Assembly (NCBI RefSeq): GCF_000196355.1
Contig: NC_007614.1
Location: 2,040,001 to 2,072,000 of the forward strand
Origin: Nitrosospira multiformis ATCC 25196
GTDB lineage: Bacteria > Pseudomonadota > Gammaproteobacteria > Burkholderiales > Nitrosomonadaceae
DNA: 32,000 nucleotides
Direction: 5' to 3'
Under the pieces are notes generated by a model that saw only the letters and a program-made list of their open reading frames with translations, made no database searches and was not told the origin of the DNA. The translations under genes were made by a program, and so were the position numbers. The stretch's first letter is position 1; each line of letters begins with the position of its first letter. Below are positions 479 through 26,831 of this stretch, piece after piece.

Positions 479-1273
479 TTATGTAAGACAGGGGAGATAA
501 GCTTCTATCATTGCAGATGACCCGGCAATAATCCCCTTCGAATGGATCGTCCATTCCATGCCCTCGTAATCAACCACTTTTCCTCCCGACACCCTCACCA
601 TGCAGACACCTGCAACCATATCTGCCGCTTTGGTCGAAGGACGAAAAAACAGGTCGAGCCTTCCCGCTGCCACTTCGGCCAGCGATAAAACAGGAACTCC
701 CAATACTTTTACTGCGCGCGCCTGTTGCAATATACGCGAAAGCTGCCCAAGTGTTTCCGGGCGCGTATGCATTTCAGAGGAAAAATCGAGTCCCACAACC
801 GCGTTTGCCGGTTCGGGCGAACTCCTTACCCGGGTAACTTCTCCATTTATTTTTAGCTGATGTTCTTCCTGTGCGCTATATAAGGTGTCATGGATGGGAT
901 CGTAAATGACGCCGAGAACAGGTTTTCCGTTGCGTAGAAGCCCGATGGAGACGGCAAGAAGTGGCGGATATCCCGTCATGTTTTCAGTCCCATCCAACGG
1001 ATCGACGACCCACTGGTCGCCCTGCTCGATAATGATTCCCCCGCTCTCTTCTCCATAAAAATGGCACGGGTGGAGTTTTAGAAGCGTTTCTTTCAGGAAT
1101 TGTTCGGATTCTCTGTCCGCAATGGTTACCACCTGCCGCCGGGACTTGAATTCACACCCCACACCTCGAGTATAGTGCGCTCTGATAATGCTCCCGGCTG
1201 ACCTTGCCACTTGCTCTATATCTTCTATAGGAAAGTCGTGCTGGGCGAAGCTTTTAAGCTTGAGGTTTTCCAT
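479..1273 (-). CDS. Inositol monophosphatase (IMPase/FBPase-like) family sugar-phosphate phosphatase
   Basis: 264-aa ORF. It carries the IMPase metal-binding motifs GEESGG and WVVDPLDGTENM. Its start lies 6 nt after the stop of the upstream GT2 gene, making it the last gene of the 8286->479 operon. Confidence 0.85.
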   Translation of the reverse strand: MENLKLKSFAQHDFPIEDIEQVARSAGSIIRAHYTRGVGCEFKSRRQVVTIADRESEQFLKETLLKLHPCHFYGEESGGIIIEQGDQWVVDPLDGTENMTGYPPLLAVSIGLLRNGKPVLGVIYDPIHDTLYSAQEEHQLKINGEVTRVRSSPEPANAVVGLDFSSEMHTRPETLGQLSRILQQARAVKVLGVPVLSLAEVAAGRLDLFFRPSTKAADMVAGVCMVRVSGGKVVDYEGMEWTIHSKGIIAGSSAMIEAYLPCLT

Positions 1274-1279
1274 ACGCGC

Positions 1280-2086
1280 TCATAACACCAGCTCTTTCGG
1301 AATATCGAAATTTCTGTTGACTACAGTGGTTGGTGCTTCCTGATGGTAGGCCCCGGAGGGGATAAGACCACAGCCGCCGTAGCGCTTCATGACTCTCAAC
1401 TGTGCAAGAACGTCTTCACCCGCATGTTCTTGCGGCACCTCCCGCCAGAATTCGAACCCGCCGGTTTCCCGCAATTTTTCGGTGTCATACAGCACGCAGC
1501 CTCCCACCCAGGCGACCTTGTATTTCTTTTGCGTGTCGGGGGTCAGTTTCAGTTTTTCCTGCACATGCAGGATATTGGCTGCATTATGCAGGCTATAACG
1601 CTGCCAATTCGCATGCTGGGGAGTAACGATCTCGGGCTCGACGCGCCCGTGCCATAGCTCTATCGCCTGTTCCGAAGGGCGGCAATCGTCCCGATATGAC
1701 AACCCGATGACTGCCTGCCCGACAAATCCGATCTCTTCTTCCCGATGCGCCTGCAGCATGTTTCCCAGAACGAAAGATTCCAGCAGAATGTCATCGTCGA
1801 GGTAAAGACAGTATGACGAATCGATCGTATCCAGCAGGAATTGCCGTTGTTGGGCCAGGCCGCGACGCGGCAGATTGGTCAGCTGCTGAACCGCATGGCC
1901 TTTTTTTTCCAGCAGGCGGATTGCTGTCTGCACAGAGGCATCCCTATAGACTGGGAGATCGCTCTGGTCGGAGATAACGACAGCAAAATCCTGGTGTTGC
2001 TGGAAACAAAGCGCGGTAAGGGTCACCGCCAAGGCAGTAGGGCGATTGTAGGAAGGAATGGCTACGGTAACGCCTGCCCGCATCAT
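1280..2086 (-). CDS. Family 2 glycosyltransferase (GT-A fold)
   Basis: 268-aa ORF. The N-terminus VTVAIPSYNRPTALAVTL is typical of GT2, and a DxD-type motif is present (YLDDDILLE). Confidence 0.8.
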   Translation of the reverse strand: MMRAGVTVAIPSYNRPTALAVTLTALCFQQHQDFAVVISDQSDLPVYRDASVQTAIRLLEKKGHAVQQLTNLPRRGLAQQRQFLLDTIDSSYCLYLDDDILLESFVLGNMLQAHREEEIGFVGQAVIGLSYRDDCRPSEQAIELWHGRVEPEIVTPQHANWQRYSLHNAANILHVQEKLKLTPDTQKKYKVAWVGGCVLYDTEKLRETGGFEFWREVPQEHAGEDVLAQLRVMKRYGGCGLIPSGAYHQEAPTTVVNRNFDIPKELVL

Positions 2087-2220
2087 GTAGCCCTAGTTAT
2101 TGATCCGGCGAATGAACTGCGGAATGCAGTAGCAGCCCGGCTTCGTTGTCGTTTCCGCCCTGGATTGCAGACCAGAGCCGGAACGATGCAATATAAATAC
2201 AACCGGGGTTTGTGCTGGCT

Positions 2221-3447
2221 TCATACATCCTCGCCATATCGAATAGGCGGGCACATGCCATATTCATTATGCGGAGTGAAACAGGCAGCCAGTGCAGTGT
2301 CAGGAAGGCTATTGCAGGTGGGGACTGGATTCCGGAGGGGGCTTGGAATGAAGGATCCGTGTTTTCTCCGTGGTGAAACAAGCTCACCTACAGCCGCCAC
2401 TATTGCCTCCGGTGAAGCCCTGGGTGTGGAGGATCCGGGGAAGGACTGAAGCAGCTGGTTCTTTGTCCTCAGTTCCGGCAGCACCTCGAAGTAGAGCACT
2501 TTGCTTGGCACTTGCCATGGCGTGTGCTGGGGATTTGTCATCGCGTACAGTACCACCACGGGGGTGCCGACGGCGGTGGCAATATGGACAGGACCGGTAT
2601 TATTCGAGATCAAGACGGGTGCCGCTTCGACCAGGACAATCAGTTCTGCAATGGATAGCTCGCCTGCGACATTTATCGCGGCATCACTGAGCTGGCGAGC
2701 GATCTGGTCTACATAATCGCGCTCGCTGCCGCTGCCTGTGAGCAGGATCTTATAGCCTTGCCTGATGAGCGATTGGCAGGCCGTTATATAATCTCTGGCC
2801 GGATAAAGACGCTTTTCTTCACTGACGCCCGCATGCAGCACCAGCCAGCCCATACCTGCCCGGATGCCGGCTACATTTAATATCTCCCATACCCTGTCCG
2901 TTGCTTCTTTCCGCGTTTCCTCTGGAATTTTCAGCAGGAGCCGGGTATCGGAGGTTTTTGCGCCGGCCATCTCGACCAGGCGAAGCTGCCGTTCGACCTC
3001 GTGGACGACGTAGTCCAGCGGTTCCCTGTCCGGCACCCACTGATTGATAAGCTGGTAAGGATTCTCGCGGCAATAGCCCAGAACGGCTTTGATACCCGCC
3101 AGATAGCACAACATGCCAGCCGGCAACGGGTTCTGGCTATAGACTGTAAAGATTACTGCGGCATCAAGCTGAAGGGCTAGCAATTCGCCGGCAAGCGCCA
3201 GCAACCGTTGCGCTCCATTGGTTTCGGTCGTCTTTACCCAGGGAACATCGAACGGAATCGTTTCGTCCACTTCCGGAATGAAGGGAGCAATGCATGCTCC
3301 CGCGGTGGAAGTCAACAGAGTGATTTTTCTGCCCGGAACCGATTCCTTGAGCGCCCGCATCGCCGGCTGGCTCATCAGCACATCGCCCATGTTGTCCGGG
3401 CGAACGCATAATATGTTCCTGTAATTTTTCCAGGCTCCGGCAAACAT
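2221..3447 (-). CDS. Family 9 glycosyltransferase (ADP-heptose-dependent heptosyltransferase-like) with an atypical ~50-aa C-terminal tail
   Basis: 408-aa ORF. It shows the N-terminal GT9 signature ILCVRPDNMGDVLMSQPAMRALKE and the C-terminal nucleotide-sugar half (ISNNTGPVHIATAVGTPVVVLY). Family-like sequence ends near ...PEAIVAAVGELV. The remaining tail (to 2221) is low-complexity, so the true stop is uncertain. Confidence 0.8.
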   Translation of the reverse strand: MFAGAWKNYRNILCVRPDNMGDVLMSQPAMRALKESVPGRKITLLTSTAGACIAPFIPEVDETIPFDVPWVKTTETNGAQRLLALAGELLALQLDAAVIFTVYSQNPLPAGMLCYLAGIKAVLGYCRENPYQLINQWVPDREPLDYVVHEVERQLRLVEMAGAKTSDTRLLLKIPEETRKEATDRVWEILNVAGIRAGMGWLVLHAGVSEEKRLYPARDYITACQSLIRQGYKILLTGSGSERDYVDQIARQLSDAAINVAGELSIAELIVLVEAAPVLISNNTGPVHIATAVGTPVVVLYAMTNPQHTPWQVPSKVLYFEVLPELRTKNQLLQSFPGSSTPRASPEAIVAAVGELVSPRRKHGSFIPSPLRNPVPTCNSLPDTALAACFTPHNEYGMCPPIRYGEDV

Positions 3448-3461
3448 TTTGATTTTCCGGC

Positions 3462-4937
3462 CTAGGCAACCTGTTTGTCCATGCTTTTGATCCTGGATAT
3501 GATGTTTGTCGTGGATCGGTCCTGAACAAAAGGCATGATTTCCACTTTTCCGCCGTATGCCCGGACAACCGGCGCTTCGGGAAGCGTTTCGATCGTATAG
3601 TCACCGCCTTTTACATACAAACTTGGCTGAATGACTTCGAGAAGATTGACCGGCGTGTCTTCTTCGAATGACGTCATGAGTGTTACCGACTCCAATCCCG
3701 AGAGGATGCGGATACGTTCATACAGGTTGTTGATGGGGCGATTGCTCCCCTTCAGACGTTTTATACTCGCATCGGAATTGAGGCCGAGCACCAGAACGTC
3801 ACCCAGAGCCCGTGCTTGCTCGAGATAGCTGACATGGCCGCTATGAAGGAGGTCGAAGCACCCGTTGGTAAACACGATGCGCTTGCCTTCTTTTCTGAAC
3901 GCATCCAGACGATTATCCAGGGCTTGCCAGTCCGCGACATATTTACTGCTGCTTCCCAGGTAATGCCGCAGTTCGTTCTGAGTGCAGGTGGCGGTGTGGG
4001 ATTTTTGAAGTATCACCATCGCGGCAGACTTGGCAATCTCACCCGCCACCTCAATAGATGATCCGCTGGCGAGAGCCAGCGTGAGCGCGCCTGCATAGGT
4101 ATCCCCTGCTCCGGCTGCCCGGGTGTTCTCTACCGGTTTGGAGAAGGTGCGATAAGGCTCCTTGCCGTGCTGAAACAGCAATGCGCCTTCGACATCGATG
4201 GTAGCCGCAACATATTTCGTTCCGGTTTTTTTGAGCAGCTTTTGTCCGTAGAGCCTGATCTGCTCCGAACGCTGGCCCACAGGCGCCGGTTCCGTGATGG
4301 CAAGCAGCGTGACGAGTTCCTGATAGTTCGGCTTGGCCACGGTCGCCCCAACCCGGCTGTATTTATCGAGCGATTTTGCGTCGATTACCAGAGTGTTTTC
4401 CTTTTTTTTCTGCAAAGCACGCAGAGCATCGATCACTGGGTCCGTGAGAATGCCATAACCATAATCGGAAACAACGACAGCATCCATCTCATGAAACTTT
4501 TCGTTCAGGGTATCGATCATCTGCTGCTCGTGCTTGTTGCATACCCGCTCTGTCGTGCCGGCATCAAAACGCACCAGCAGTTGGGTACCTGCGGCGACAC
4601 GCTGTTTGGTAAGCGTTCGACGGGCCGGATCGCAGATAACCAGGGAAATGTCGAGGCCATGACTGACGAGCGATTCTTTCAGCAACTCGGCCTCGTGATC
4701 ACATCCGACAACCGAAAGATAGTGGACTGTGGCACCCAGTTGTGCCAGATTTACTGCCGTATTAGCCGCTCCTCCCGGCACTGCCTTGACATCCCTGATA
4801 TCCACGATGGGAACAGGCGCTTCCCTGCAGATACGGTTTGCCGCCCCGTCGAGATAAACATCGAGCATCGCATCGCCGATTACAAGTACATTCAAACCGC
4901 TAAAGCGATCGATAGTGGCAAGATAACTGCTGTTCAT
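3462..4937 (-). CDS. hldE: Bifunctional D-beta-D-heptose 7-phosphate kinase / D-beta-D-heptose 1-phosphate adenylyltransferase
   Basis: The N-terminal half is a ribokinase-like domain (VLVIGDAMLDVYL..., PGGAANTAVNLAQLG). The C-terminal half is a cytidylyltransferase domain with the HxGH motif (FTNGCFDLLHSGHVSYLEQAR). I moved the start to the internal ATG at 4937 (MNSSYLATIDRF...) because AGGAGG lies 4-9 nt upstream. The ORF-track start at 5069 adds 44 non-homologous residues. Confidence 0.9.
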   Translation of the reverse strand: MNSSYLATIDRFSGLNVLVIGDAMLDVYLDGAANRICREAPVPIVDIRDVKAVPGGAANTAVNLAQLGATVHYLSVVGCDHEAELLKESLVSHGLDISLVICDPARRTLTKQRVAAGTQLLVRFDAGTTERVCNKHEQQMIDTLNEKFHEMDAVVVSDYGYGILTDPVIDALRALQKKKENTLVIDAKSLDKYSRVGATVAKPNYQELVTLLAITEPAPVGQRSEQIRLYGQKLLKKTGTKYVAATIDVEGALLFQHGKEPYRTFSKPVENTRAAGAGDTYAGALTLALASGSSIEVAGEIAKSAAMVILQKSHTATCTQNELRHYLGSSSKYVADWQALDNRLDAFRKEGKRIVFTNGCFDLLHSGHVSYLEQARALGDVLVLGLNSDASIKRLKGSNRPINNLYERIRILSGLESVTLMTSFEEDTPVNLLEVIQPSLYVKGGDYTIETLPEAPVVRAYGGKVEIMPFVQDRSTTNIISRIKSMDKQVA

Positions 4938-5025
4938 GCTGCCTCCTTTTACCTGGAATATGTCGCCCTGCAAGCTATACGGGGTCAAAGCAAATTCCAG
5001 GGAGCAATCGGGAAAACTGCCAGTA

Positions 5026-5634
5026 TCAGCAGTGTGCAACCTCCGTGCGCACGGCACCGCAATTGGCACCCTGACAAATAATTTCCGCTGCTTCCATCCA
5101 ATCCGTTACCGAATACACAGGTTCTCGATCATTGCCCTTTACCCACTCCGTCTCGTTACCGTTATCCAGATGAATCGTGCGGCAACCCGCACGATTTCCC
5201 GCTTCCACGTCGTTCAGGATATCGCCGATCATCCAGGAGGCCTGCAGGTGCACGCCCTGATCTTTGGCAGCCTTTAAAATCATTCCCGGCATCGGCTTAC
5301 GGCATCGGCAACCATCGCCCGGCGCGTGCGGGCAGTAATAAAAAGCGTCGATGGAAACATCATATTGCGCGAGCAAGGACTGGATGCAGCGGTTAACAGG
5401 AAACAAATCCTTTTCCTCGAACAAGCCCCGGGCGATCCCGGATTGATTGGAAATGACGACCAATTTATAACCCGCATTTTTCATATTCCGGAGAGCTGGA
5501 CCCGCACCCACGGTCAACCGGATATAGCGCGGATCGACGTTGTAGGGCACGTCGTGAACAAGTGTGCCGTCCTTGTCGATAAACACGGCCTTTCCAGGTG
5601 CAGTTTCTTCAGTTTTCTTAGCCACTACGGCCAC
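5026..5634 (-). CDS. gmhB: D-glycero-D-manno-heptose 1,7-bisphosphate phosphatase (HAD superfamily)
   Basis: It carries the HAD motif I FIDKDGTL and the GmhB zinc-loop signature YYCPHAPGDGCRCRKPMPGM. There is no in-frame ATG near the domain start. Candidate GTG starts at 5634 or 5625 overlap the TAG stop (5625-5627) of the upstream SDR gene. The rest of the 335-aa ORF-track frame overlaps the SDR gene and is rejected. Confidence 0.85.
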   Translation of the reverse strand: MAVVAKKTEETAPGKAVFIDKDGTLVHDVPYNVDPRYIRLTVGAGPALRNMKNAGYKLVVISNQSGIARGLFEEKDLFPVNRCIQSLLAQYDVSIDAFYYCPHAPGDGCRCRKPMPGMILKAAKDQGVHLQASWMIGDILNDVEAGNRAGCRTIHLDNGNETEWVKGNDREPVYSVTDWMEAAEIICQGANCGAVRTEVAHC

Positions 5635-6356
5635 GATGTCTCCCGCATCGGGAGAACCATAACTTCGGGAATCACCGTTTCGTCGGGTTGTGTCAGGACA
5701 AAGTGCACGGTGTCCGCCACGTTTTTTGGATCCTGGAGGACGTTTGGATCGGTATCGGGGAACCTGTCCATGATGAAAGGCGTGCGCATGCCGCCTGCTA
5801 TCACCGCAGTGACCTTGATATTGTCCCGGCGTCCTTCCGCATGCAGGGCATGACTGAAACCGAGCAGGCCCCATTTGCTTGCGTGGTAGGCACTGGCCTC
5901 CGTCCAGACCCGCTTCGCGGCTGTCGAGGCAATGTTGACGATATGACCCCTGCCCTGACGCTTGAGAAGCGGATAGACAGTTTTCGACAACAGGAAGGGA
6001 CCGCATAAGTTGACGTCCACCACCCGGTCCCAATCGGTCACGCTTAAATCTTCAATCCCCAGGGTCATGTCAGTACCGGCGTTGTTGATCAGGATATCGA
6101 TGCGGCCATGCTCGGCCATGATGTCATCGACAGTCTGCCGGATACCCTCCGCGTTGCGTACATCCAGCACGAATGGATAAGCAGCGCCGCCCCCGTCGTT
6201 AATGGCCTGGGCCACGTTTTTCACCTTGTCTTCCTTGATATCGCAGGCGCAGACGACCGCTCCTGCCGCGCCGAGCGTGTTTGCTATCGCCTCGCCCAAC
6301 CCCTGGCCTGCGCCCGTGACAATAACGACTTTGTCAGTCACACTTTGTTGATTCAT
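5625..6356 (-). CDS. Classical short-chain dehydrogenase/reductase (FabG-like SDR)
   Basis: 243-aa ORF with the cofactor motif TGAGQGLG, NNAG, and the catalytic YHASK (YxxxK). Its start overlaps the end of the upstream GT4-SIS gene by 23 nt. Confidence 0.85.
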   Translation of the reverse strand: MNQQSVTDKVVIVTGAGQGLGEAIANTLGAAGAVVCACDIKEDKVKNVAQAINDGGGAAYPFVLDVRNAEGIRQTVDDIMAEHGRIDILINNAGTDMTLGIEDLSVTDWDRVVDVNLCGPFLLSKTVYPLLKRQGRGHIVNIASTAAKRVWTEASAYHASKWGLLGFSHALHAEGRRDNIKVTAVIAGGMRTPFIMDRFPDTDPNVLQDPKNVADTVHFVLTQPDETVIPEVMVLPMRETSWP

Positions 6357-8286
6357 GCTTGATTTTCCTCTTATTAACGTTTTTAGCCATTTCCTGGACC
6401 TGAAAGTGCTTTATTGACCACTCTTCCGTTATCTGAACGGTATTCAGGTCATCCACCACGATTTGCTGCTCGATCAGATGACTGAGCACGTGGAGAACAA
6501 GCAGTTGTACTTCCTGGATGCGTGAAGTTTCGTTTGACGGAACAATGATGTTGATATCAGTCAGTTCGCTGGCAGGACCACCCTCCTTGCCAAGCAGGCC
6601 AATGCAGAACATCTCGTGCCGGCGCGCCGTCCGGAGCGCCTTGACCAAGTTGACTGACTGCCCGCTCGAGCTGATGACAACCAGAACGTCCCCCGGCTGC
6701 CCATGCGCTTCGACCTGTCTGGCAAACACATCGTCAAATGTATAGTCATTCGACCAGGCGGTCACAAAGGCGGTATCGGCAGTGAGTGCCATTGCGGGCA
6801 AGCCGCGACGACCACTTGCCTCAAACCGCCCCATGAGTTCGGCCGCAAAGTGCTGCGCTTCGGCGGCACTCCCGCCATTGCCGCAAACCAATACCTTTCC
6901 GCCGCGCGCCAACGAGCGGTATACAGCCTGGGCCGAATCGAGGATGGCAAGGCGGATTTTCCGCCTGGACTTTTCAATAGTCTCTATTAATGACCCGAAG
7001 GAGTCGTCGATGTAGGACAAGGAATCTTCTTCTTCGTCCGCTCGCAGGGGGCTCTGGGTTGCAATCCGCTCGTACATGTTGGCCGTGAGATGCGTTGCCT
7101 TCATCCAGGTGTAATTCTGATTGACATGGCGGATGGCGTTTTCCTTGAAATACGTCATGAGCTTGTTGCTGCTCAAAAGCTCTATGATGCGGCGCCCGAG
7201 TGACGCGGGATCGTTGGGCGGCACGAGAAAGCCCGTCCTGCCATCCATGACGGTGGATTTAATGCCCCCAACATTTGACCCGATCACGGGCGTCCCGCAG
7301 GCCATTGCTTCAAGCGGGGTGATCCCGAACGGTTCATACCAGGGCGTAGTCGTGAATACGTCGCACGCGCTATAGTAATAATGCAGCATGTCGCGCGGGC
7401 GGCGTCCGACAAACGTCACAAGATCGCCCGCACCCTCTGCTTCAGCCAGTTTTTGCAGGCGACCGATTTCAGGCGTTGTTTTTGGATCGGGCTCATCCGA
7501 CTCCCCGCCCACTATCAGAAGACGTGCTTCGAAGTTATGCTCGCGCCGCATGTAGCCCAGCGCTTTTATGACGTTATCGACACCCTTTCGCCGCACCATG
7601 CGCCCCAGTTGCAGGATAATCTTTTCCTTGGGATCGAGTTTCAGCGCCATGCGCGCGAACAGCTTGTCGAGAGGATAGATCTCATCCGGTCTGAATCCGT
7701 TTGGAATAACCGTGATTTTTCCGGGATCAGCTTCATAAAGATTGATCAGATCATCGCGGTCCTGCGGGCACAAGGCGACAATCTGGTCCGCTTCTGTTAT
7801 CACCCTTTCTTCGATGGCAAAGCCCTCGTCCGGGAACCAGTCATTCCCTCCCTGGTGAAGCCTCCGCACTTTTGCGAGAGCGTGAAAGGTAACGATGAAA
7901 GGAATACCCAGTTTTCGCTTGATATCCGCCGCCACCAGCCCGGACATGAAGAAATGGGCGTGAACGAGCTTGTAGCGATTGTTTTCCGACTTGATAAACC
8001 GCAGGATGTCGCGCGTGAAGGCGGGCATATAAGGCAGCAGCTTTTCCTTGGGAATGAACGTGACGGGCCCGGCTTCCACATGGACGATGCGTATGCCATC
8101 CCGCCAGTTGAGGATTTTTGGAACACGGCGGTCATCCCAGCGGGTAAAGACATCAATTTCGTAGCCGAGGGCGGCAAGATGCCGGGCCAGCTCGGCCACC
8201 GCTATATTTTGTCCGCCGGTGTCCGTACCTCCTATTGCCGCGATGGGTGAAGCGTGTTCACTGATGAGGGCAATTCTCTTCTTCAT
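6334..8286 (-). CDS. Fusion protein: N-terminal GT4 glycosyltransferase (sucrose-phosphate-synthase-like) + C-terminal SIS-domain phosphoheptose isomerase (GmhA-like)
   Basis: This is a single uninterrupted 650-aa ORF. Residues ~1-410 have the SPS/GT4-like N-terminus ISEHASPIAAIGGTDTGGQNIAVAELARHL and the EX7E region YEPFGITPLEAMACGTPVIGS. Residues ~445-610 align by eye with E. coli GmhA (GGKVLVCGNGGSAAEAQHFAAELMGRF..., ISSSGQSVNLVKA..., RIQEVQLLVLHVL). A strong RBS GGAAGGAG precedes ATG 8286. Confidence 0.85.
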   Translation of the reverse strand: MKKRIALISEHASPIAAIGGTDTGGQNIAVAELARHLAALGYEIDVFTRWDDRRVPKILNWRDGIRIVHVEAGPVTFIPKEKLLPYMPAFTRDILRFIKSENNRYKLVHAHFFMSGLVAADIKRKLGIPFIVTFHALAKVRRLHQGGNDWFPDEGFAIEERVITEADQIVALCPQDRDDLINLYEADPGKITVIPNGFRPDEIYPLDKLFARMALKLDPKEKIILQLGRMVRRKGVDNVIKALGYMRREHNFEARLLIVGGESDEPDPKTTPEIGRLQKLAEAEGAGDLVTFVGRRPRDMLHYYYSACDVFTTTPWYEPFGITPLEAMACGTPVIGSNVGGIKSTVMDGRTGFLVPPNDPASLGRRIIELLSSNKLMTYFKENAIRHVNQNYTWMKATHLTANMYERIATQSPLRADEEEDSLSYIDDSFGSLIETIEKSRRKIRLAILDSAQAVYRSLARGGKVLVCGNGGSAAEAQHFAAELMGRFEASGRRGLPAMALTADTAFVTAWSNDYTFDDVFARQVEAHGQPGDVLVVISSSGQSVNLVKALRTARRHEMFCIGLLGKEGGPASELTDINIIVPSNETSRIQEVQLLVLHVLSHLIEQQIVVDDLNTVQITEEWSIKHFQVQEMAKNVNKRKIKHESTKCD

Positions 8287-8789
8287 ACTCCTTCCCTTTC
8301 ATTGAAGCCGGCCAAAGTAAGCCGCTCGGTACTGAAACAGAAGAATGCCCCCTCATTCACACGGGAACACTCCCTGTTACAACAGACCGACGTCTGCATG
8401 GCCAACCAGAGTATGTCGGATGTCGAAACGATCGAGGGTTACGAGATTTTCCATGGAGACACATACTGCATTCGAATCCAGTGTATCCCTTTGATTCCAG
8501 ATCAATCATCGAGTCGAATTAGAGCAGATGCCCGAATTTTAAGAAGGAAAACGCGTGCGCTCTGTTCGGTACCACACTCATGCTGAGCGGCGAAGCCTTC
8601 CGGAGGGGAGCTTGCTTAAGGCAGGCAAAAGGGCGGACAAAAGAGTACTGGATTGTCCTAGGGACGTTCCGGTTCGGGGATTCGCAATTGAAGAAGAAGC
8701 AGGAAGGTATTCTTATGACGCGGATACGAGGTTTCATCCGGCAATCTGGTTGATTCCCGGCTTTTTTCGCCCACTCGGCGCGGATTCAA

Positions 8790-16973: not shown

Positions 16974-17710
16974 CCTGGCGATCTCACACTCCCGACCAAG
17001 TCGCGCATGCGCTCAATCTTGACGAGGCATGACACTCCGCCGAAGACTTCCAATGAGCCCCGGATTCCAAAGACTTGGTTTCACGGAAGTGCCCCGTAAT
17101 CTTCCCCCTCCTCAAGTCGCAAAGCTGTCTTTACAGAAAAACTTTTTCTGCTGAATGAGTTCTCCCGGGAACGAAATCACTCCTGCCCCCACCCATTCTC
17201 TTTTCCGTCCGCGCTTTTCATTCTCTCTTCATGCATTTATCCATATAAAAATTTCTATACAGGCTGCAGTTTCCTGTATACTCCGCGCTTCGACGAAAAG
17301 CCCTAATAGCATCACGGCTTTTTTCGGTCCATCGTTCCTGACCGTTTCAGAGCTTTTTCGATTTTCAAGTTTCCAGCGGAAATTGGCGGCACCGTGGTTA
17401 GCGGCGATGTTTGAAACGCCTGATCAATCCTTTACGGGTTCATCAAGCGGTTTCTTATGTATGTGCGCCGGCCGACCAGCAGCCCGTCCGTTTTCGAGGG
17501 TACGTCCTGCTTGCGCGCTCGAGAGCGCATCCAAGAATCAATTCAGGTCACCTGACTCAGACACAACATGGAATGAAAAACATTCCTGTGCAGAACTTGA
17601 CAGTTTTGTTGTAACTCTCTTGGTGCAAAATCCTTCCAAGTAGGGGCTGATGCAAGGAAACCGAGTTTTTTTGAGGATGCACACTTTTTCATTCAACAGG
17701 AAAAAACAAC

Positions 17711-19645: not shown

Positions 19646-20464
19646 TTAGTGAAGACCGGAAGCACGAGGCATCGCTTCCTCCATTGTTCCCTGCAAGGGT
19701 TCGCGCTTCCTCAGCATGCGTAAAACCCAGTAGATGGCACAAGCGGCAAGCAGATGCTTTACGCTGTGTCCACTGATTGCGTGTCCCAGAGCATAAATCG
19801 GCCGGTCTGTGAATTCCGCAACCTTGGCAAGGGCATAAAGCCCCAGCGCAGTGTAGATGTCTCGTCCGCGGGTATAGCGCGAGCGGAAAAAAACACCCAG
19901 GAGAACGATGACCAGCAACGAATAGAACTGCACGACTACATAAAAGTTCAGATTGCCCACCCCCCGCTGTTCGCTCCAGTACCAGTTCAGTACGGTACCT
20001 GCTCCGATCGCAATCAGGACAGGCAGAAGGCGTGTCCCTGCTTTTGGACCGATCCGGTCGTTGATCGTTGCTGCCAGCAGCGCCATGATGCCGATTGCAA
20101 TGGGTAACCGGTCCCATATCAGACGATCGTTGTCAGGAGCCAGATGGTAGTAAGCTGAACCGAAGCATACCAGGGCCACGTTCAGGAACAAAATCATGAA
20201 AGGCCAGCGTTCGGACGGGAGGGTAAAGGTCTTTGCCGCGCACGAACCTCGAGAGTTCAGCAAAAATACCAGCCCTGCGACTCCAACGAAGAGAAAAGCG
20301 AAATTGGAGATTACATTAAAACAGTTTGGAATGCCGAAACAGTCCCGGCTATCGGCGAAATGGTGGTATGACGAGGGCTGTGGAATGGGCGGAACAATTG
20401 TCGCAAGCAACAACATGGCGACTGAAAGTATAGCCAGTATCCATAATTTGAATTTATTGCTCAA
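19646..20464 (-). CDS. Polytopic membrane protein, alkaline-ceramidase-like (PF05875-like) family, function unknown
   Basis: 272-aa ORF with about 7 hydrophobic segments. The motifs YHHFADSRDCFGIPNCFNVISNFAF and GHAISGHSVKHLLAA resemble bacterial ceramidase-domain proteins as I remember them. The family assignment is unverified. Confidence 0.6.
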   Translation of the reverse strand: MSNKFKLWILAILSVAMLLLATIVPPIPQPSSYHHFADSRDCFGIPNCFNVISNFAFLFVGVAGLVFLLNSRGSCAAKTFTLPSERWPFMILFLNVALVCFGSAYYHLAPDNDRLIWDRLPIAIGIMALLAATINDRIGPKAGTRLLPVLIAIGAGTVLNWYWSEQRGVGNLNFYVVVQFYSLLVIVLLGVFFRSRYTRGRDIYTALGLYALAKVAEFTDRPIYALGHAISGHSVKHLLAACAIYWVLRMLRKREPLQGTMEEAMPRASGLH

Positions 20465-24132: not shown

Positions 24133-25848
24133 TTAATTATTTGCTTTGCGCAGATAGTCGGACAAGACATTTAACACCGAACCTGGCAGTTGCCCGCTGG
24201 GGGGCATCGGATTGGTCGGTTCGTGCATGCGGCCTATGATTTTGTCAACCAGATCGGGGTGTTTGAAATCGGCTTCGGTCATTAAAACCGGCTTGGCCAT
24301 TTCCGACGCATGGCAATAGCTGCAATGTTCCTGCAAATACTTGAACGATTCCTTTTTGACCCGTTCCATCGTCCAGTGATCGTCCCATTGGCAATTTCCC
24401 GGCTGCCGGTCGCAATCATTGATCTTTCGCAAGGCCGTCTGATAGTGTCCGAGCGATAGTTTTTCCCGCAATTCGTTCTCTTCCTTGATCGATTTGGCGC
24501 TGACCCTGATCGGCAGGATGCCTTCGCTCTTTATCTTTTTATCGTGTGCGCTATCGCTGCGCTGAGCCTCGGAAACATTCGACAAAAACAAACGGGCACG
24601 CCAGTTTTCGCCGACCCCGGGATGAAATTTTTCATCCTTCAGGCTATGGACGGAAAACAGGGAATTAACAAAAGTGGCGTAGACACCATTTCCGAGTGCA
24701 TGGCATTGCGCGCATGCTTTCGCCTCGGGGCTGACCAGACGCTTGGGTTTTTCCCAGGGATACTGCATCAGATCTTCATAATATTTATCTTTTTTGTCGG
24801 CTTCGCTCATCGCCAGTAAAAATTTGTTGAGCGTACCGTCTCCATCAAAAGGAGAAATCACCGAATACAGCATTCCCGGCTGGCGGCGTGGTTTCAGAAC
24901 CCTGCACTGATATTTGATACGGTCGCCACGCGCATAGGTTTGCTCGAGATATTTGCCGCAAGCCTCGTTGCTGGAAAAACTTCTGAGACAACTGGTGGAA
25001 CTGCCGGCAACGAGGCAGACCGGTTCATTGAAAGGGTAGCGAATGAACGGACCGTTGGAATGACAACGGGTGCAGCCGCCAAAAGTCGGCACCGACCAGT
25101 GGATCACCATTTTTTCATCGAATTTACTGAAGCCTGGCGCAGGAATCTTTTCCCCCGGAATCAGGGCAACATCCGCTTCCGTCCTGATGGTTTCGACCGG
25201 CTCCCCTTTATTGTTCTTCTCGATGACCTTCCACTTCCCGTTGACCTTGAGGGTTTGCGTCGGCTGCCCGGCAAAATAGCAGGTTTTACCCGTATGCCGG
25301 TTATAGCCGATCAGGCCCAGTTCATTGTAATGACCCCCCTGCTTCGAAAAATTGCTATTCTTCCGGCATATGTAGACCCAATCGACGGTTTGCCCACCCT
25401 TGATCTGATTTATCAGATGTTTGATGCGATTGCCGGGGATACAGCCAGCATTACGCATGTCCCGAAAAACGCCGCTGGGCTTGTCGCAGGAGGTGATGTC
25501 ATCGAATAACTGGGTATCGGCATTCAACTTGAGCTGCCCTGTTTCGGAATTGCGGAACCGGGGGGTGCTCTCCGGCAAATCCTCATTCAGCTTGATCACC
25601 TTGCCGCCGGCAAGCGTACGCTCGGTTGGAATCAGCACTGCATCCGGACAATGGATGGTTTCCTGCGGAAATGGTCCCAGCTCTGCTTCACAAACCTCAA
25701 AATATTTCTTGTTGATCTCAATTCTGACCCTTGACGGCGCGGCCACCGGCGTCATGTCAGGCTCATCCTCATAGGCTTGTTGCGCAAAGAGCTCTGAGGC
25801 AAACGCAAGAAGCAGGAGAAAAAAGCTGGATAAAATCTTTTGCTGCAT
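24133..25848 (-). CDS. Exported Cys-rich protein with three CXXCH haem-c binding motifs (putative trihaem c-type cytochrome), family not recognised
   Basis: Signal peptide MQQKILSSFFLLLLAFASELFA-QQ. I verified the CXXCH motifs on the DNA: CTRCH at 25060-25074, CAQCH at 24700-24714 and CSYCH at 24310-24324. The last ~70 aa look like a class-I cytochrome c domain (CSYCH...PMPP). There are 12 further Cys residues. The start is set at ATG 25848 (GGAG 7 nt upstream); ATGs at 25863 and 25860 are also possible. Confidence 0.75.
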   Translation of the reverse strand: MQQKILSSFFLLLLAFASELFAQQAYEDEPDMTPVAAPSRVRIEINKKYFEVCEAELGPFPQETIHCPDAVLIPTERTLAGGKVIKLNEDLPESTPRFRNSETGQLKLNADTQLFDDITSCDKPSGVFRDMRNAGCIPGNRIKHLINQIKGGQTVDWVYICRKNSNFSKQGGHYNELGLIGYNRHTGKTCYFAGQPTQTLKVNGKWKVIEKNNKGEPVETIRTEADVALIPGEKIPAPGFSKFDEKMVIHWSVPTFGGCTRCHSNGPFIRYPFNEPVCLVAGSSTSCLRSFSSNEACGKYLEQTYARGDRIKYQCRVLKPRRQPGMLYSVISPFDGDGTLNKFLLAMSEADKKDKYYEDLMQYPWEKPKRLVSPEAKACAQCHALGNGVYATFVNSLFSVHSLKDEKFHPGVGENWRARLFLSNVSEAQRSDSAHDKKIKSEGILPIRVSAKSIKEENELREKLSLGHYQTALRKINDCDRQPGNCQWDDHWTMERVKKESFKYLQEHCSYCHASEMAKPVLMTEADFKHPDLVDKIIGRMHEPTNPMPPSGQLPGSVLNVLSDYLRKANN

Positions 25849-26831
25849 CTCAATCTCCATCATCTATCAATTAAACAAACTTATTATTCAGGTTGAAGTA
25901 CATAGAACCCTTGTCTGGGTGGCCATGTGATGGGATGGGGTTGCCAAAGCAGGCGAAAGCTTCTTCTGATGAGAAAACTGACGGCTGGCCTAGAGCGGCG
26001 ACTCCAGGAGTCTGAGGAGTTGCTTTTTCCCCAGCAAATATCGTTATTGGATTAAATAATCGGCAAACTGAGCGCAAACTTGAGTCGCGCTCCAGCCCTT
26101 GATCCTTCATCGAACTTGGAGCAGGAATTAGGTACGTCACCATGCCGCTCTTCGATGGCAGCACTCAACTCAAGCTGGGTGCCTTCGATGATTCAGCCAA
26201 TAAATTGCAACCACTCTACGGCTTGTATATCGCTCTCGCAGCGGAACATATTGATTCTTTCGAGATTGATCTCTATTGACTTCGCTATGAAAGAGAAAAG
26301 GCGCGGTTTGCAACAGCGCAGGGGAAACGCAGGCTTTCGTTCGGCACGCGGCTTTTTGGTGTCACAGAGGTTGAGACTGGAATATGGAAGTCCTATTTCA
26401 ACCCGGGCATGCCGGCGACCAAACCATCCGTGCCTGGACTGTTGTCTCCGATACCGGTTTTACTTTCCTCGCACTTCCTTGGTCGTCGCGGCGGGGCGTA
26501 AAAGCGGATATAGCCCGCGGTGATAAAATGGATTTGCAGCCAGTCTTGACGATCAAGCCGGCTCACGCTCTGATACTTGTCCTGGGCGGTATTTTTTGTG
26601 GAAACATCATAAGGAAGACGGGGTTTAAGCCGCCTGCCTCTTGGTGGCGATACGTGAAACAATTGGAACCAGTCGCCATATCGGCGACCCGATCAAATTG
26701 GAAGGTAATTATCGCCTTAGCCCGCAGTGAGAAATCCGTGCTGCTATCGTCCATTTTCGAGCAGGAAGTGGATTAATTCAGGCAGGCGGTGGGAATGTGA
26801 CTTTTCTTATGACAAGCCTGGGTTTTCGCTG

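What the first reader, a model, noticed from the sequence alone, without database searches (positions are those of the whole stretch)
6334..8286. In-frame fusion of an SPS-like GT4 glycosyltransferase to a GmhA phosphoheptose isomerase (SIS) domain
Seen in sequence: one 650-aa ORF has no stop or frameshift between a GT4 domain (aa ~1-410, DNA ~7057-8286) and a GmhA-like SIS domain (aa ~445-610, DNA ~6460-6950). An acidic linker (RADEEEDSLSYIDD) joins them. Established knowledge: GmhA is normally a free-standing ~190-aa tetrameric enzyme. SPS-type GT4 enzymes transfer an NDP-sugar onto a ketose-phosphate acceptor (fructose-6-P). Inference: GmhA binds sedoheptulose-7-P, which is also a ketose phosphate. 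The fusion could therefore channel or present a heptulose/heptose phosphate to the transferase as its acceptor. Alternatively it could simply co-localise the first pathway step with the last. Either way the architecture is unusual.
Basis: partly seen in the sequence, partly recalled or inferred. Interest (0 to 1): 0.65.

Follow-up and report, generated by a model that had tools for sequence, protein, structure and literature searches.

The report
Glycosyltransferase fused to heptose isomerase
One real 650-residue protein joins a sucrose-phosphate-synthase-like sugar transferase to an intact heptose-pathway isomerase, and it opens a 7-gene module belonging to a widespread, uncharacterised gene cluster that probably makes a soluble heptose-containing sugar compound rather than outer-membrane lipopolysaccharide.

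Summary
ORF 6334..8286(-) is an uninterrupted 650-aa protein with a GT4 domain (aa ~4-410), an acidic linker and a GmhA/SIS domain (aa ~429-610). Full-length relatives (55-98% identity) occur in Nitrosospira, Methylococcales, Cyanobacteria, Chloroflexota, Bacteroidota, Actinomycetota, Patescibacteria and Myxococcota. It is therefore not an assembly artefact and not rare.

Both domains keep their catalytic residues. The closest solved structures are Thermosynechococcus sucrose-phosphate synthase and MshA for the GT4 domain, and C. jejuni GmhA for the SIS domain.

The gene heads a 7.8-kb module: fusion, SDR, GmhB, HldE, GT9, GT2, IMPase. This is a reduced form of a cluster seen across many phyla: GT9b, small GT, GT4, [SDR], GmhB, [HldE], GT9a, [carbamoyltransferase], [GT2].

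In 41 of 69 informative loci the orthologous GT4 is unfused and no GmhA lies nearby. In other lineages the same GT4 is fused to GmhB, and once to GmhA and GmhB together.

Best reading (inferred): GmhA makes heptose-7-P, the GT4 glycosylates a phosphorylated acceptor that is most plausibly that heptose phosphate, the GmhB-like phosphatase removes the phosphate, and GT9 adds heptose. The acceptor and the final product are unknown. I found no literature on this fusion or cluster. Interest is moderate.

The parts
6334..8286 (-). GT4-GmhA fusion gene (650 aa plus stop)
   Evidence: single ORF with no internal stop. Shine-Dalgarno GGAAGGAG upstream of ATG 8286; full-length homologues at 55-98% identity.
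7057..8277 (-). GT4 retaining glycosyltransferase domain (aa ~4-410), SPS/MshA subgroup
   Evidence: TeSPS 6kih E 8e-66, MshA 3c48 E 7e-56. TM 0.93 and 0.92. Catalytic and donor-binding residues H135, E318, P319, E326, R229, R233 and K234 are invariant in 82 family members.
7003..7056 (-). Acidic inter-domain linker (aa 411-428, contains RADEEEDSLSYIDD)
   Evidence: for coordinates; pLDDT about 65; poorly conserved in the alignment.
6457..7002 (-). GmhA (sedoheptulose-7-phosphate isomerase, SIS fold) domain (aa ~429-610)
   Evidence: C. jejuni GmhA 1tk9 E 1e-47. TM 0.94, rmsd 1.3 A, 43% identity. H479, E483, Q591 and H599 are present; their roles are taken.
6337..6456 (-). Non-conserved, poorly modelled C-terminal tail (aa 611-650); its coding DNA carries the RBS and start codon of the next gene
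   Evidence: pLDDT 78 at aa 611-620, ~52 at 621-640, below 50 only for 638-650; no conservation. SDR ATG at 6356 overlaps the fusion ORF by 23 nt.
5625..6356 (-). Classical short-chain dehydrogenase/reductase (243 aa), translationally coupled to the fusion
   Evidence: adh_short E 2e-55. An orthologue (50-68% identity) lies directly after the GT4 in 35 of 69 loci.
5026..5634 (-). GmhB-like HAD-IIIA phosphatase (heptose-1,7-bisphosphate 7-phosphatase family)
   Evidence: NF006506 147 bits. E. coli GmhB 3l8e E 1e-25, with the DxDGT, NQSGIARG, CPH..CxCRKP and GD motifs aligned. Present in 56 of 69 loci.
3462..4937 (-). HldE-like bifunctional heptose-7-P kinase / heptose-1-P adenylyltransferase (likely start ATG 4937)
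   Evidence: NF008454 392 bits; domain II (TIGR02199) 203 bits, above its 181.5 cut-off. AAAGGAGG before ATG 4937.
2221..3447 (-). GT9 heptosyltransferase-like protein ('GT9a', 408 aa)
   Evidence: Glyco_transf_9 E 1e-24. WaaF 1psw E 2e-15. Orthologues (42-56% identity) in 60 of 69 loci.
1280..2086 (-). GT2 glycosyltransferase (268 aa)
   Evidence: Orthologues (52-60% identity) in 9 of 69 loci and in L085 and L086.
479..1273 (-). Inositol-monophosphatase-family phosphatase (264 aa), last gene of the module in Nitrosomonadaceae only
   Evidence: Inositol_P E 6e-45. Follows the GT2 gene in Nitrosovibrio L086 as well, after a 57-aa ORF, and lies inside the block conserved at DNA level. Absent from the 69 other loci.
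8287..8789 (-). 503-nt upstream intergenic region (presumed promoter and 5' leader); only 8287-8309 is shared with Nitrosovibrio
   Evidence: next gene upstream is TamB, ending at 8790. DNA similarity to L086 starts at 8309; no Rfam family; no convincing sigma-70 match.

Best explanation
The ORF encodes a genuine bifunctional enzyme. It is the first gene of a 7.8-kb, seven-gene module (window ~481-8309) that builds a soluble heptose-containing glycoside.

Shown by sequence, structure prediction and comparative genomics:
- The C-terminal domain is a catalytically intact GmhA, which converts sedoheptulose-7-P to D-glycero-D-manno-heptose-7-P.
- The N-terminal domain is a retaining GT4 of the SPS/MshA subgroup. 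The solved relatives in that subgroup glycosylate small anionic metabolites.
- The module also encodes GmhB, HldE and a GT9. [quoted passage not shown] No HldD epimerase is present in the module.

Inferred:
- The GT4 transfers a hexose from an NDP-sugar onto a phosphorylated acceptor. The most plausible acceptor is the heptose-7-phosphate made by its own GmhA domain.
- The GmhB-like 7-phosphatase then removes the phosphate. This is the logic of SPS followed by SPP, or TPS followed by TPP.
- GT9 and GT2 extend the product with heptose from ADP-heptose, and the SDR tailors it.

The GmhA domain is a modular supply-and-coupling element. It is fused, encoded separately or absent depending on the lineage. 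Because GmhA is a homotetramer, the fusion would place four GT4 domains around an isomerase core.
For: A real, conserved fusion:
-.

GmhA half intact:
- 1tk9 E 1e-47; TM 0.94.
- H479, E483, Q591 and H599 are conserved. The E-Q-H triad is required for activity according to PMC4697000.

GT4 half is SPS/MshA-like:
-. The next structural neighbours are GlgM (acceptor Glc-1-P, from my own knowledge) and BshA (acceptor malate; one search lists the malate complex).
- TeSPS His158, Glu331, Pro332, Glu339, Arg249 and Arg253 map to invariant H135, E318, P319, E326, R229 and R233. P319 is the near-exception, conserved in 81 of 82.
- The acceptor-phosphate ligand Arg105 maps to invariant K80. Arg178 maps to R in 79 of 82 family members.

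Conserved neighbourhood, same order and strand across many phyla:
- GmhB-like in 56 of 69 loci.
- GT9a in 60 of 69.
- HldE in 28 of 69.
- SDR in 35 of 69.

Link between the GT4 and GmhB:
- 32 loci keep GT4, GmhB and GT9 with no GmhA nearby, and 35 of the 41 GmhA-less loci also lack HldE.
- The same GT4 family is fused to GmhB in roughly 95 database clusters.
- One 839-aa protein is GT4-GmhA-GmhB.

Not LPS-specific:
- The cluster occurs in Chloroflexota, Actinomycetota and Patescibacteria.

A discrete module:
- 74-78% nucleotide identity to Nitrosovibrio exactly over window 481-8309, with unrelated flanks.
Against: - No biochemical data exist for any member. The acceptor, the donor and the final product are all inferred.
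- The fusions with GmhA and GmhB could arise simply from stop-codon loss between adjacent operon genes, without any substrate hand-over.
- The GT4 works without a fused or neighbouring GmhA in 41 of 69 loci.
- The window protein, the one examined Saccharibacteria cluster (L001/L002) and the Nitrosovibrio and Methylococcales relatives aligned have Gly at position 155. Nearly all other members have the second acceptor-phosphate Arg there.
- Two positions that I recall as MshA phosphate ligands (Tyr110 and Thr134; roles from memory, not checked here) are Phe and Ala in this family.
- The module already encodes a complete canonical ADP-heptose route. That is enough to explain GmhA and GmhB without any role for the GT4 on heptose phosphate.
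- pTM 0.68 gives no evidence for a fixed interface between the domains.
- GT9a carries Asn where WaaF and the other GT9s have the conserved Asp. Its donor is therefore not certain.
Confidence: 0.45

Rival explanations
1. Supply-only fusion. GmhA, HldE and GmhB serve only to make ADP-heptose for the GT9 enzyme(s). The GT4 glycosylates an unrelated small phosphorylated or anionic primer (for example an inositol phosphate, fructose-6-P or another polyol or sugar phosphate) that is later heptosylated. The fusion reflects operon adjacency and co-expression, with no substrate hand-over.
For: - The module encodes the complete canonical pathway.
- Fused GmhA co-occurs with HldE in 20 of 26 loci. Both are mostly missing together in Burkholderiales, which as LPS-heptose producers presumably have a housekeeping pathway (my inference, not checked here).
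- 41 of 69 loci have an unfused GT4 with no GmhA nearby.
- Fused and unfused forms are interleaved on the GT4 tree, which implies easy gain and loss.
- The best NCBIfam match is MshA, and the Nitrosomonadaceae module ends with an IMPase-family phosphatase.
- The catalytic residues of the GmhA domain have decayed in Methylococcales relatives that keep the rest of the cluster.
Against: - It does not explain why a GmhB paralogue stays next to the GT4 in about 30 loci that lack both GmhA and HldE.
- It does not explain why the GT4 is fused to GmhB in roughly 95 clusters.
- MshA and SPS equivalog cut-offs are missed by a wide margin.
- The IMPase is absent from all 69 other loci.
- No inositol-phosphate synthase or sucrose genes were seen in the neighbourhoods.
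Confidence: 0.33
2. Cell-envelope role. The module is an LPS inner-core or other envelope glycoconjugate locus. The GT9 acts like WaaC or WaaF, and the GT4 acts like WaaG by adding a hexose onto lipid-linked heptose.
For: - GT9 family membership and weak similarity to WaaF and WaaC.
- N. multiformis is a Gram-negative bacterium.
- The module lies next to the outer-membrane biogenesis genes tamA and tamB.
- WaaG is a GT4 (rank 43).
Against: - The orthologous cluster occurs in Chloroflexota, Actinomycetota and Patescibacteria, phyla generally considered to lack LPS (my own knowledge).
- The GT4 is far closer to soluble SPS and MshA (226 and 193 bits) than to WaaG (44 bits).
- GT9a is below all NCBIfam heptosyltransferase cut-offs.
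- No Kdo transferase, flippase, polyprenyl-phosphate transferase or ligase is conserved in the cluster.
- The flank differs in Nitrosovibrio, so the tamAB adjacency is incidental.
Confidence: 0.1
3. The SIS domain is non-catalytic. Like DiaA, it serves only as a tetramerisation or sugar-phosphate-binding scaffold for the GT4.
For: - DiaA is a GmhA homologue and scores 139 bits.
- Some relatives have lost the catalytic Glu, or both His and Glu: P0045, P0053 and L028.
- GmhA equivalog cut-offs are not reached.
Against: - In the window protein all four catalytic or zinc residues and the phosphate-binding Ser-rich loop are intact.
- E483 and H479 are at least 90% conserved, and Q591 and H599 are invariant, in 76 fusion proteins.
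- GmhA models score above DiaA.
Confidence: 0.07
4. Assembly or annotation artefact: two adjacent genes joined by a sequencing error.
For: None found. The only candidates are the triple fusion P0367, which is a single observation on a short contig, and Elainella L054, where the GT4 is split across two ORFs.
Against: An identical protein is found on a 3.18-Mb contig and in other assemblies. More than 100 independent full-length clusters from isolates and metagenomes keep the same junction.
Confidence: 0.01

Closest known systems
Sucrose-phosphate synthase (Thermosynechococcus Tll1590, PDB 6kih) with its partner sucrose-phosphate phosphatase
   Same: - Best sequence and structure match of the GT4 half: 226 bits, 32% identity, TM 0.93.
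- Same catalytic His and Glu and the same donor-phosphate Arg/Lys residues.
- An acceptor-phosphate ligand is conserved as K80, and the second as R155 in most of the family.
- Genetically coupled, and in relatives fused, to a HAD phosphatase. This parallels the SPS-SPP fusions known in plants and cyanobacteria (my own knowledge).
   Different: - Scores 136 bits against the 576-bit cut-off of the SPS model.
- The window protein has Gly at the second phosphate-binding Arg.
- The partner phosphatase is of the GmhB type (HAD-IIIA), not SPP.
- The partner domain is GmhA, and the neighbours are heptose-pathway genes and GT9s rather than sucrose genes.
- The acceptor is unknown.
MshA (D-inositol-3-phosphate N-acetylglucosaminyltransferase, PDB 3c48/3c4q)
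   Same: - Top NCBIfam hit (270 bits) and second-best structural match (TM 0.92).
- A soluble retaining GT4 that acts on a phosphorylated cyclitol.
- The position equivalent to Lys78 is conserved.
   Different: - Below the 462.5-bit equivalog cut-off.
- The positions of Tyr110 and Thr134 are Phe and Ala. Their roles as phosphate ligands are from memory and were not checked here.
- No mycothiol genes nearby.
- The taxonomic range lies far outside Actinomycetes.
Canonical GmhA (free-standing homotetramer of ~190 aa; PDB 1tk9, 1x92, 2xbl)
   Same: - 43% identity, TM 0.94, rmsd 1.3 A.
- E-Q-H triad, Zn-ligand His and phosphate loop are conserved.
- The long N-terminal helix that frames the tetramer is predicted (aa 417-460).
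   Different: - The N-terminus is tethered to a 410-aa glycosyltransferase.
- It carries a 40-aa poorly conserved, low-confidence tail.
- It is below the equivalog cut-offs.
- It belongs to a horizontally mobile accessory module rather than the LPS core pathway.
Other multi-domain enzymes of the heptose pathway: HldE (kinase plus adenylyltransferase) and, from memory, septacidin SepB (GmhA fused to HldE-type domains)
   Same: Fusion of heptose-nucleotide pathway steps into a single polypeptide. An HldE fusion sits in the same module here.
   Different: In this protein the partner of GmhA is a glycosyltransferase, not another nucleotide-sugar biosynthetic step. I found no described example.
LPS inner-core glycosyltransferases WaaC/WaaF (GT9) and WaaG (GT4)
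   Same: The same CAZy families combined with ADP-heptose supply genes.
   Different: - Weak similarity: WaaG 44 bits, WaaF 60 bits.
- The cluster is present in phyla generally considered to lack LPS.
- No lipid A or Kdo genes are linked.
- GT9a replaces the conserved Asp of the ND(S/T)G motif by Asn.

Membership tests
GmhA (sedoheptulose-7-phosphate isomerase) | SIS-fold domain homologous to characterised GmhA | tested here: met
   1tk9 E 1e-47, plus 14 further GmhA/DiaA structures. TM 0.94, rmsd 1.3 A.
GmhA (sedoheptulose-7-phosphate isomerase) | Catalytic Glu-Gln-His triad and Zn-ligand His (E. coli E65, Q172, H180, H61) | tested here: met
   E483, Q591, H599 and H479 are present. The triad's role is taken from PMC4697000. 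The role of the Zn-ligand His is from my memory of Harmer 2010.
GmhA (sedoheptulose-7-phosphate isomerase) | Score above the curated equivalog cut-off | tested here: not met
   NF010546 199.4 bits against 276; TIGR00441 186 against 209.45.
GmhA (sedoheptulose-7-phosphate isomerase) | Isomerase activity and homotetramer formation | not testable with these tools
   Only a monomer model was made.
Sucrose-phosphate synthase (GT4) | GT-B fold with catalytic His158 and Glu331 and donor-binding Arg249, Arg253 and Glu339 | tested here: met
   H135, E318, R229, R233 and E326 are invariant.
Sucrose-phosphate synthase (GT4) | Both acceptor-phosphate arginines (Arg105, Arg178) | tested here: inconclusive
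   Arg105 maps to K80, a conservative change that is invariant. Arg178 maps to G155 in the window protein but to R in 79 of 82 family members.
Sucrose-phosphate synthase (GT4) | Score above the equivalog-domain cut-off; link to sucrose genes | tested here: not met
   TIGR02472 135.9 bits against 576. No SPP, sucrose synthase or fructokinase in the window or in 86 related loci.
MshA (mycothiol GT4) | Score above the equivalog cut-off | tested here: not met
   TIGR03449 269.8 bits against 462.5.
MshA (mycothiol GT4) | Inositol-phosphate phosphate ligands (Lys78, Tyr110, Thr134, Arg154; roles recalled from Vetting et al. 2008, not re-read) | tested here: not met
   K80 is kept, but F112 and A136 (both invariant) replace Tyr and Thr.
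[quoted passage not shown] | GmhA, heptose-7-P kinase, GmhB and heptose-1-P adenylyltransferase all encoded together | tested here: met
   HldE domain II passes its cut-off (203.4 against 181.5). The HAD-IIIA domain models pass. The HldE whole-protein, kinase-domain and GmhB equivalog models fall below their cut-offs.
[quoted passage not shown] | HldD (ADP-heptose 6-epimerase) for the L,D-heptose used in LPS | tested here: not met
   The only SDR in the module is a 243-aa classical SDR with FabG-like matches. It gave no epimerase-family match among the best 25 of 221 NCBIfam hits.
LPS core glycosyltransferase locus (WaaC/WaaF/WaaG type) | Restricted to LPS-producing bacteria and linked to lipid A-Kdo acceptor enzymes | tested here: not met
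   The cluster is found in Chloroflexota, Actinomycetota and Patescibacteria. No Kdo or lipid A genes are conserved nearby. GT9a is below the heptosyltransferase cut-offs.

The most novel reading that the evidence does not exclude
The fusion is the core of a previously undescribed, widely distributed cytoplasmic pathway. That pathway would be a heptose counterpart of sucrose or trehalose synthesis:

1. GmhA makes heptose-7-P.
2. The SPS-like GT4 glycosylates it.
3. A GmhB-type 7-phosphatase releases a hexosyl-heptose.
4. GT9, the small GT and GT2 extend this primer, and in many lineages a NodU-like enzyme carbamoylates it.

The result would be a new class of soluble heptose oligosaccharide, such as an osmolyte, a storage compound or a signal. 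It would be made even by bacteria that have no LPS.
Probability: 0.3. Interest if true: 0.75.

Novelty: new variant of a known kind. Interest (0 to 1): 0.55.

Why it matters
Heptose-nucleotide synthesis is usually treated as an LPS-core pathway. It is also a source of the innate-immune agonist ADP-heptose.

Here the complete pathway is wired to an SPS-like transferase in a module that moves between phyla. At least 593 GTDB species representatives carry a relative of the GT4. Those phyla include Chloroflexota, Actinomycetota and candidate-phyla-radiation bacteria (Patescibacteria), which are generally considered to lack LPS.

If the proposed synthase-phosphatase logic on heptose-7-P is right, it would define:
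- a new family of sugar-phosphate glycosyltransferases;
- a new soluble heptose glycoside;
- a second job for GmhB-type phosphatases.

It would also correct automatic annotations. These proteins are currently named 'phosphoheptose isomerase', 'D-inositol-3-phosphate glycosyltransferase' or 'histidinol-phosphate phosphatase family protein'.

If only the supply-module reading holds, the finding is a routine Rosetta-stone fusion. It would still usefully link an orphan GT4/GT9 cluster to ADP-heptose.

Tried and rejected
- **Artefact or frameshift:** rejected because the junction is conserved in more than 100 independent clusters.
- **Anti-phage defence** (prompted by the Pfam 'GT4-conflict' hit): no PADLOC match for any of the seven proteins. 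The Pfam hit is generic GT4 similarity.
- **Riboswitch or RNA element in the 503-nt leader or elsewhere:** no Rfam family at gathering threshold in the window.
- **Promoter and terminator scan:** no more hits than in shuffled sequence, so uninformative.
- **Literature:** nine full-text searches found nothing on a GT4-GmhA fusion or on this cluster. They found only papers on the individual families.
- **NCBIfam:** no specific family for the extra conserved genes (small GT, GT9b, carbamoyltransferase).
- **Junction query against the 50%-identity library:** of limited use for counting, because the family collapses into few representatives and many of those are fragments.
- **Inter-domain geometry:** could not be judged. 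pTM is 0.68 and neither PAE nor coordinates are available.
- **MshA ligand roles:** could not be verified from an accessible paper.

Full report
**1. The observation**

- ORF 6334..8286 on the minus strand is 650 codons with one terminal stop. Its ATG is preceded by a strong Shine-Dalgarno sequence, GGAAGGAG.
- Pfam places Glyco_transf_4 (aa 24-201), Glycos_transf_1 (aa 212-386) and SIS_2/SIS (aa 434-601) on one polypeptide. The acidic linker RADEEEDSLSYIDD is aa 415-428.
- The identical protein sits on a 3,184,243-bp contig. Its cluster mates are named Nitrosospira multiformis.
- More than 100 clusters of about 640-aa proteins at 55-98% identity share the whole architecture.
- A query spanning only the junction (aa 341-500) finds about 30 representatives at the 50% level that match across it in one stretch.
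- The fusion is therefore real.

**2. The two halves**

*GmhA half.*
- It matches C. jejuni, P. aeruginosa and B. pseudomallei GmhA at E 1e-47 to 1e-43.
- The AlphaFold2 model has mean pLDDT 90.1. It superposes on 1tk9 with TM 0.94 and rmsd 1.3 A.
- The E-Q-H triad is required for activity according to PMC4697000. In the window protein it is E483, Q591 and H599. The zinc-ligand His is H479.
- Across 76 fusion proteins Q591 and H599 are invariant, and H479 and E483 are at least 90% conserved.
- Exceptions exist. The Methylococcales relatives P0045 (Glu to Lys) and P0053 (His to Gln, Glu to Thr) have lost catalytic residues. Locus L028 has a degenerate domain.

*GT4 half.*
- It is closest to Thermosynechococcus sucrose-phosphate synthase 6kih (226 bits; TM 0.93; 32% identity). 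Next comes C. glutamicum MshA (193 bits; TM 0.92). GlgM and BshA follow.
- As far as they are characterised, these are soluble enzymes that glycosylate small anionic metabolites. The acceptors I rely on are fructose-6-P for SPS and malate for BshA. Inositol phosphate for MshA and glucose-1-P for GlgM are from my own knowledge.
- I used the residue roles given for TeSPS and corrected for a +3 offset in chain numbering.
  - His158, Glu331, Pro332, Glu339, Arg249 and Arg253 map to H135, E318, P319, E326, R229 and R233.
  - The acceptor-phosphate ligand Arg105 maps to K80. Arg178 maps to position 155.
- In 82 family members all of these are invariant, apart from P319 (81 of 82) and position 155. 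Position 155 is Arg in 79 and Gly only in the window protein and in the Saccharibacteria loci L001/L002. The Nitrosovibrio and Methylococcales relatives also show Gly there.
- The protein fails the curated cut-offs for MshA (270 against 462.5), SPS (136 against 576) and GmhA (199 against 276).
- It is therefore a distinct family related to these enzymes, not a member of any of them.

**3. The surroundings in the window**

The fusion is followed on the same strand, with overlaps or short gaps, by six genes:

| Coordinates (minus strand) | Product | Note |
|---|---|---|
| 5625-6356 | Classical SDR | Start overlaps the fusion's tail by 23 nt |
| 5026-5634 | GmhB-like HAD-IIIA phosphatase | |
| 3462-4937 | HldE | |
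| 2221-3447 | GT9 ('GT9a') | |
| 1280-2086 | GT2 | |
| 479-1273 | IMPase-family phosphatase | |

- No HldD epimerase is present in the module.
- Upstream lie tamB and tamA. The rest of the window is housekeeping.
- Window 481-8309 is 74-78% identical at DNA level to a Nitrosovibrio sp. Nv4 locus, and the flanks there are unrelated. The seven genes therefore form a discrete module.

**4. Comparative genomics**

I kept 80 loci and added six from exact-protein look-ups.
- BLAST of the window proteins against all ORFs of these loci shows one cluster in the same order and strand across these groups:
  - Cyanobacteria, Chloroflexota and Bacteroidota;
  - Actinomycetota and Patescibacteria;
  - Planctomycetota and Verrucomicrobiota;
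  - Acidobacteriota and Gemmatimonadota;
  - Myxococcota, Burkholderiales and Methylococcales.
- Among the 69 loci with at least 5 kb downstream of the GT4:

| Component | Loci (of 69) |
|---|---|
| GmhA fused to the GT4 | 26 |
| GmhA as a separate gene | 2 |
| GmhA absent | 41 |
| GmhB-like | 56 |
| GT9a | 60 |
| SDR | 35 |
| HldE | 28 |
| GT2 | 9 |
| IMPase | 0 |

- Fused GmhA and HldE go together in 20 of the 26 fused loci. Of the 41 loci without GmhA, 35 also lack HldE, and 32 keep GmhB and GT9.
- Most loci across all 86 carry further conserved genes that the window lacks:
  - a ~330-aa small glycosyltransferase, in 67 loci;
  - a second GT9, in 63 loci;
  - a NodU-like carbamoyltransferase, in 47 loci.
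- NCBIfam has no dedicated model for these three.
- On a neighbour-joining tree of the GT4 domains, fused and unfused forms are interleaved. The window protein groups with the Saccharibacteria locus. This indicates repeated gain or loss of the domain, and horizontal transfer.

**5. Other fusions of the same GT4**

- In Gemmataceae locus L057 one 636-aa ORF carries GT4 plus GmhB.
- A database search with that protein finds roughly 95 clusters of 594-695 aa with the same GT4-HAD architecture.
- The same search finds one 839-aa protein, P0367, whose Pfam layout is GT4 (29-404), SIS_2 (456-584), HAD (675-820).
- This GT4 family is thus repeatedly joined to the enzyme that makes heptose-7-P and to the enzyme family that removes a heptose 7-phosphate. 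I saw no fusion to HldE or to GT9.

**6. How it most likely works**

*Shown:*
- It is a real two-domain protein with both catalytic sites intact.
- The module encodes a complete ADP-D,D-heptose route plus a GT9.
- The cluster is not tied to LPS.

*Inferred:*
- The GT4 uses a phosphorylated small acceptor. The grounds are its nearest relatives and the conserved K80 and R155.
- The only phosphatase conserved with the GT4 is GmhB-like, and it stays with the GT4 where HldE and GmhA are absent. The most economical scheme is therefore three steps:
  1. GmhA converts sedoheptulose-7-P to heptose-7-P.
  2. The GT4 adds a hexose.
  3. The GmhB-like enzyme removes the 7-phosphate.
- This is the logic of SPS followed by SPP. 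GT9 and GT2 would then extend the product, and the SDR would tailor it.
- I give the specific heptose-phosphate-acceptor version about 0.45. I give about 0.9 to the general statement that this is a bifunctional enzyme of a non-LPS heptose-glycoside cluster.

*Main rival (0.33):*
- GmhA, HldE and GmhB only supply ADP-heptose, and the GT4 primes on some other metabolite.
- Support comes from the dispensability of the GmhA domain, its decay in Methylococcales, and the MshA-like profile together with an IMPase in the Nitrosomonadaceae module.

*Minor rivals:*
- An LPS or envelope role (0.10) is disfavoured by the cluster's presence in phyla generally considered to lack LPS and by the weak similarity to WaaG.
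- A scaffold-only SIS domain (0.07) is disfavoured by the intact active site.
- An artefact (0.01) is excluded by conservation.

**7. Weak points**

- No activity, donor, acceptor or product is known.
- Fusions between adjacent operon genes can be mechanistically neutral.
- Gly155 in the window's subclade removes one predicted phosphate ligand.
- GT9a orthologues (38 of 38 matched by the motif search) have NN(T/S)G where WaaF and most other GT9s have ND(T/S)G. Even the heptosyl donor of GT9a is therefore an assumption.
- Three cyanobacterial loci have a kinase-only HldE.
- pTM 0.68 says nothing about a fixed inter-domain geometry.

**8. Novelty and verdict**

- Both domains are known kinds, and automatic annotation already lists the protein under generic or misleading names.
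- Nine full-text searches found no description of this fusion or cluster. PADLOC, Rfam and NCBIfam hold no specific model.
- I rate it a new variant of a known kind, with interest 0.55.
- The fusion alone is an ordinary Rosetta-stone event. What makes it useful is that it links an orphan, very widespread multi-glycosyltransferase cluster to heptose metabolism outside LPS, and that it suggests a directly testable heptose analogue of sucrose-phosphate synthesis.

Noticed in passing
L057 9911-11821; proteins P0274-P0366: The same GT4 family is fused to the GmhB-like HAD phosphatase instead of GmhA in roughly 95 database clusters (594-695 aa). These come from Gemmataceae and from other, mostly metagenomic, sources. 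Sources annotate them as 'histidinol-phosphate phosphatase family protein' or 'D,D-heptose 1,7-bisphosphate phosphatase'.
   Followed up: partly
protein P0367 (839 aa, ENA contig of 4,956 bp): A single triple fusion: GT4 (29-404), SIS_2/GmhA (456-584), HAD/GmhB (675-820). It could be real or an assembly error, because it was seen only once.
   Followed up: partly
window 481-8309 versus L086 9979-17971: The seven-gene module is 74-78% identical at DNA level to Nitrosovibrio sp. Nv4, but it sits in a different genomic context: relA/spoT upstream there, tamB here. The similarity stops exactly at the module's ends.
   Followed up: yes
window 479-1273 (-): An IMPase-family phosphatase closes the module in Nitrosospira and Nitrosovibrio. 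It is absent from all 69 other informative loci. The Nitrosomonadaceae module in turn lacks the small GT, GT9b and carbamoyltransferase found elsewhere.
   Followed up: partly
window 2221-3447 (-), aa ~281-288; GT9a orthologues in L001-L084: GT9a orthologues (38 of 38 matched) carry NN(T/S)G where WaaF and most other GT9s in these loci carry ND(T/S)G. The Asp corresponds, from memory, to the functionally important Asp261 of WaaC. The meaning for donor specificity is unknown.
   Followed up: partly
L004 8381-9427; L013 13662-14762; L026 13429-14523: Three cyanobacterial clusters encode only the PfkB kinase half of HldE, with no adenylyltransferase domain nearby.
   Followed up: no
proteins P0045 and P0053; locus L085 6576-8450; locus L028: In Methylococcales relatives the fused GmhA domain has lost catalytic residues (Glu to Lys in one; His to Gln and Glu to Thr in the other), while SDR, GmhB, HldE and the GT9s are kept. 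L028 has only a 31%-identical remnant. This suggests decay of the domain where another GmhA exists.
   Followed up: partly
most of L003-L084, for example L057 7769-9998 and 12960-14684: The wider cluster contains three further genes: a ~330-aa glycosyltransferase with an N-terminal LTWHVHGNY motif (67 loci), a second GT9 (63 loci) and a NodU-like carbamoyltransferase (47 loci). None has a specific NCBIfam model.
   Followed up: partly
window 19646-20464 (-), 17155-17643 (+), 24133-25863 (-): Three ORFs with little or no family assignment: a weak ceramidase-family match (36 bits), a 162-aa ORF with no Pfam match, and a 576-aa ORF with only a sub-threshold cytochrome c match.
   Followed up: no
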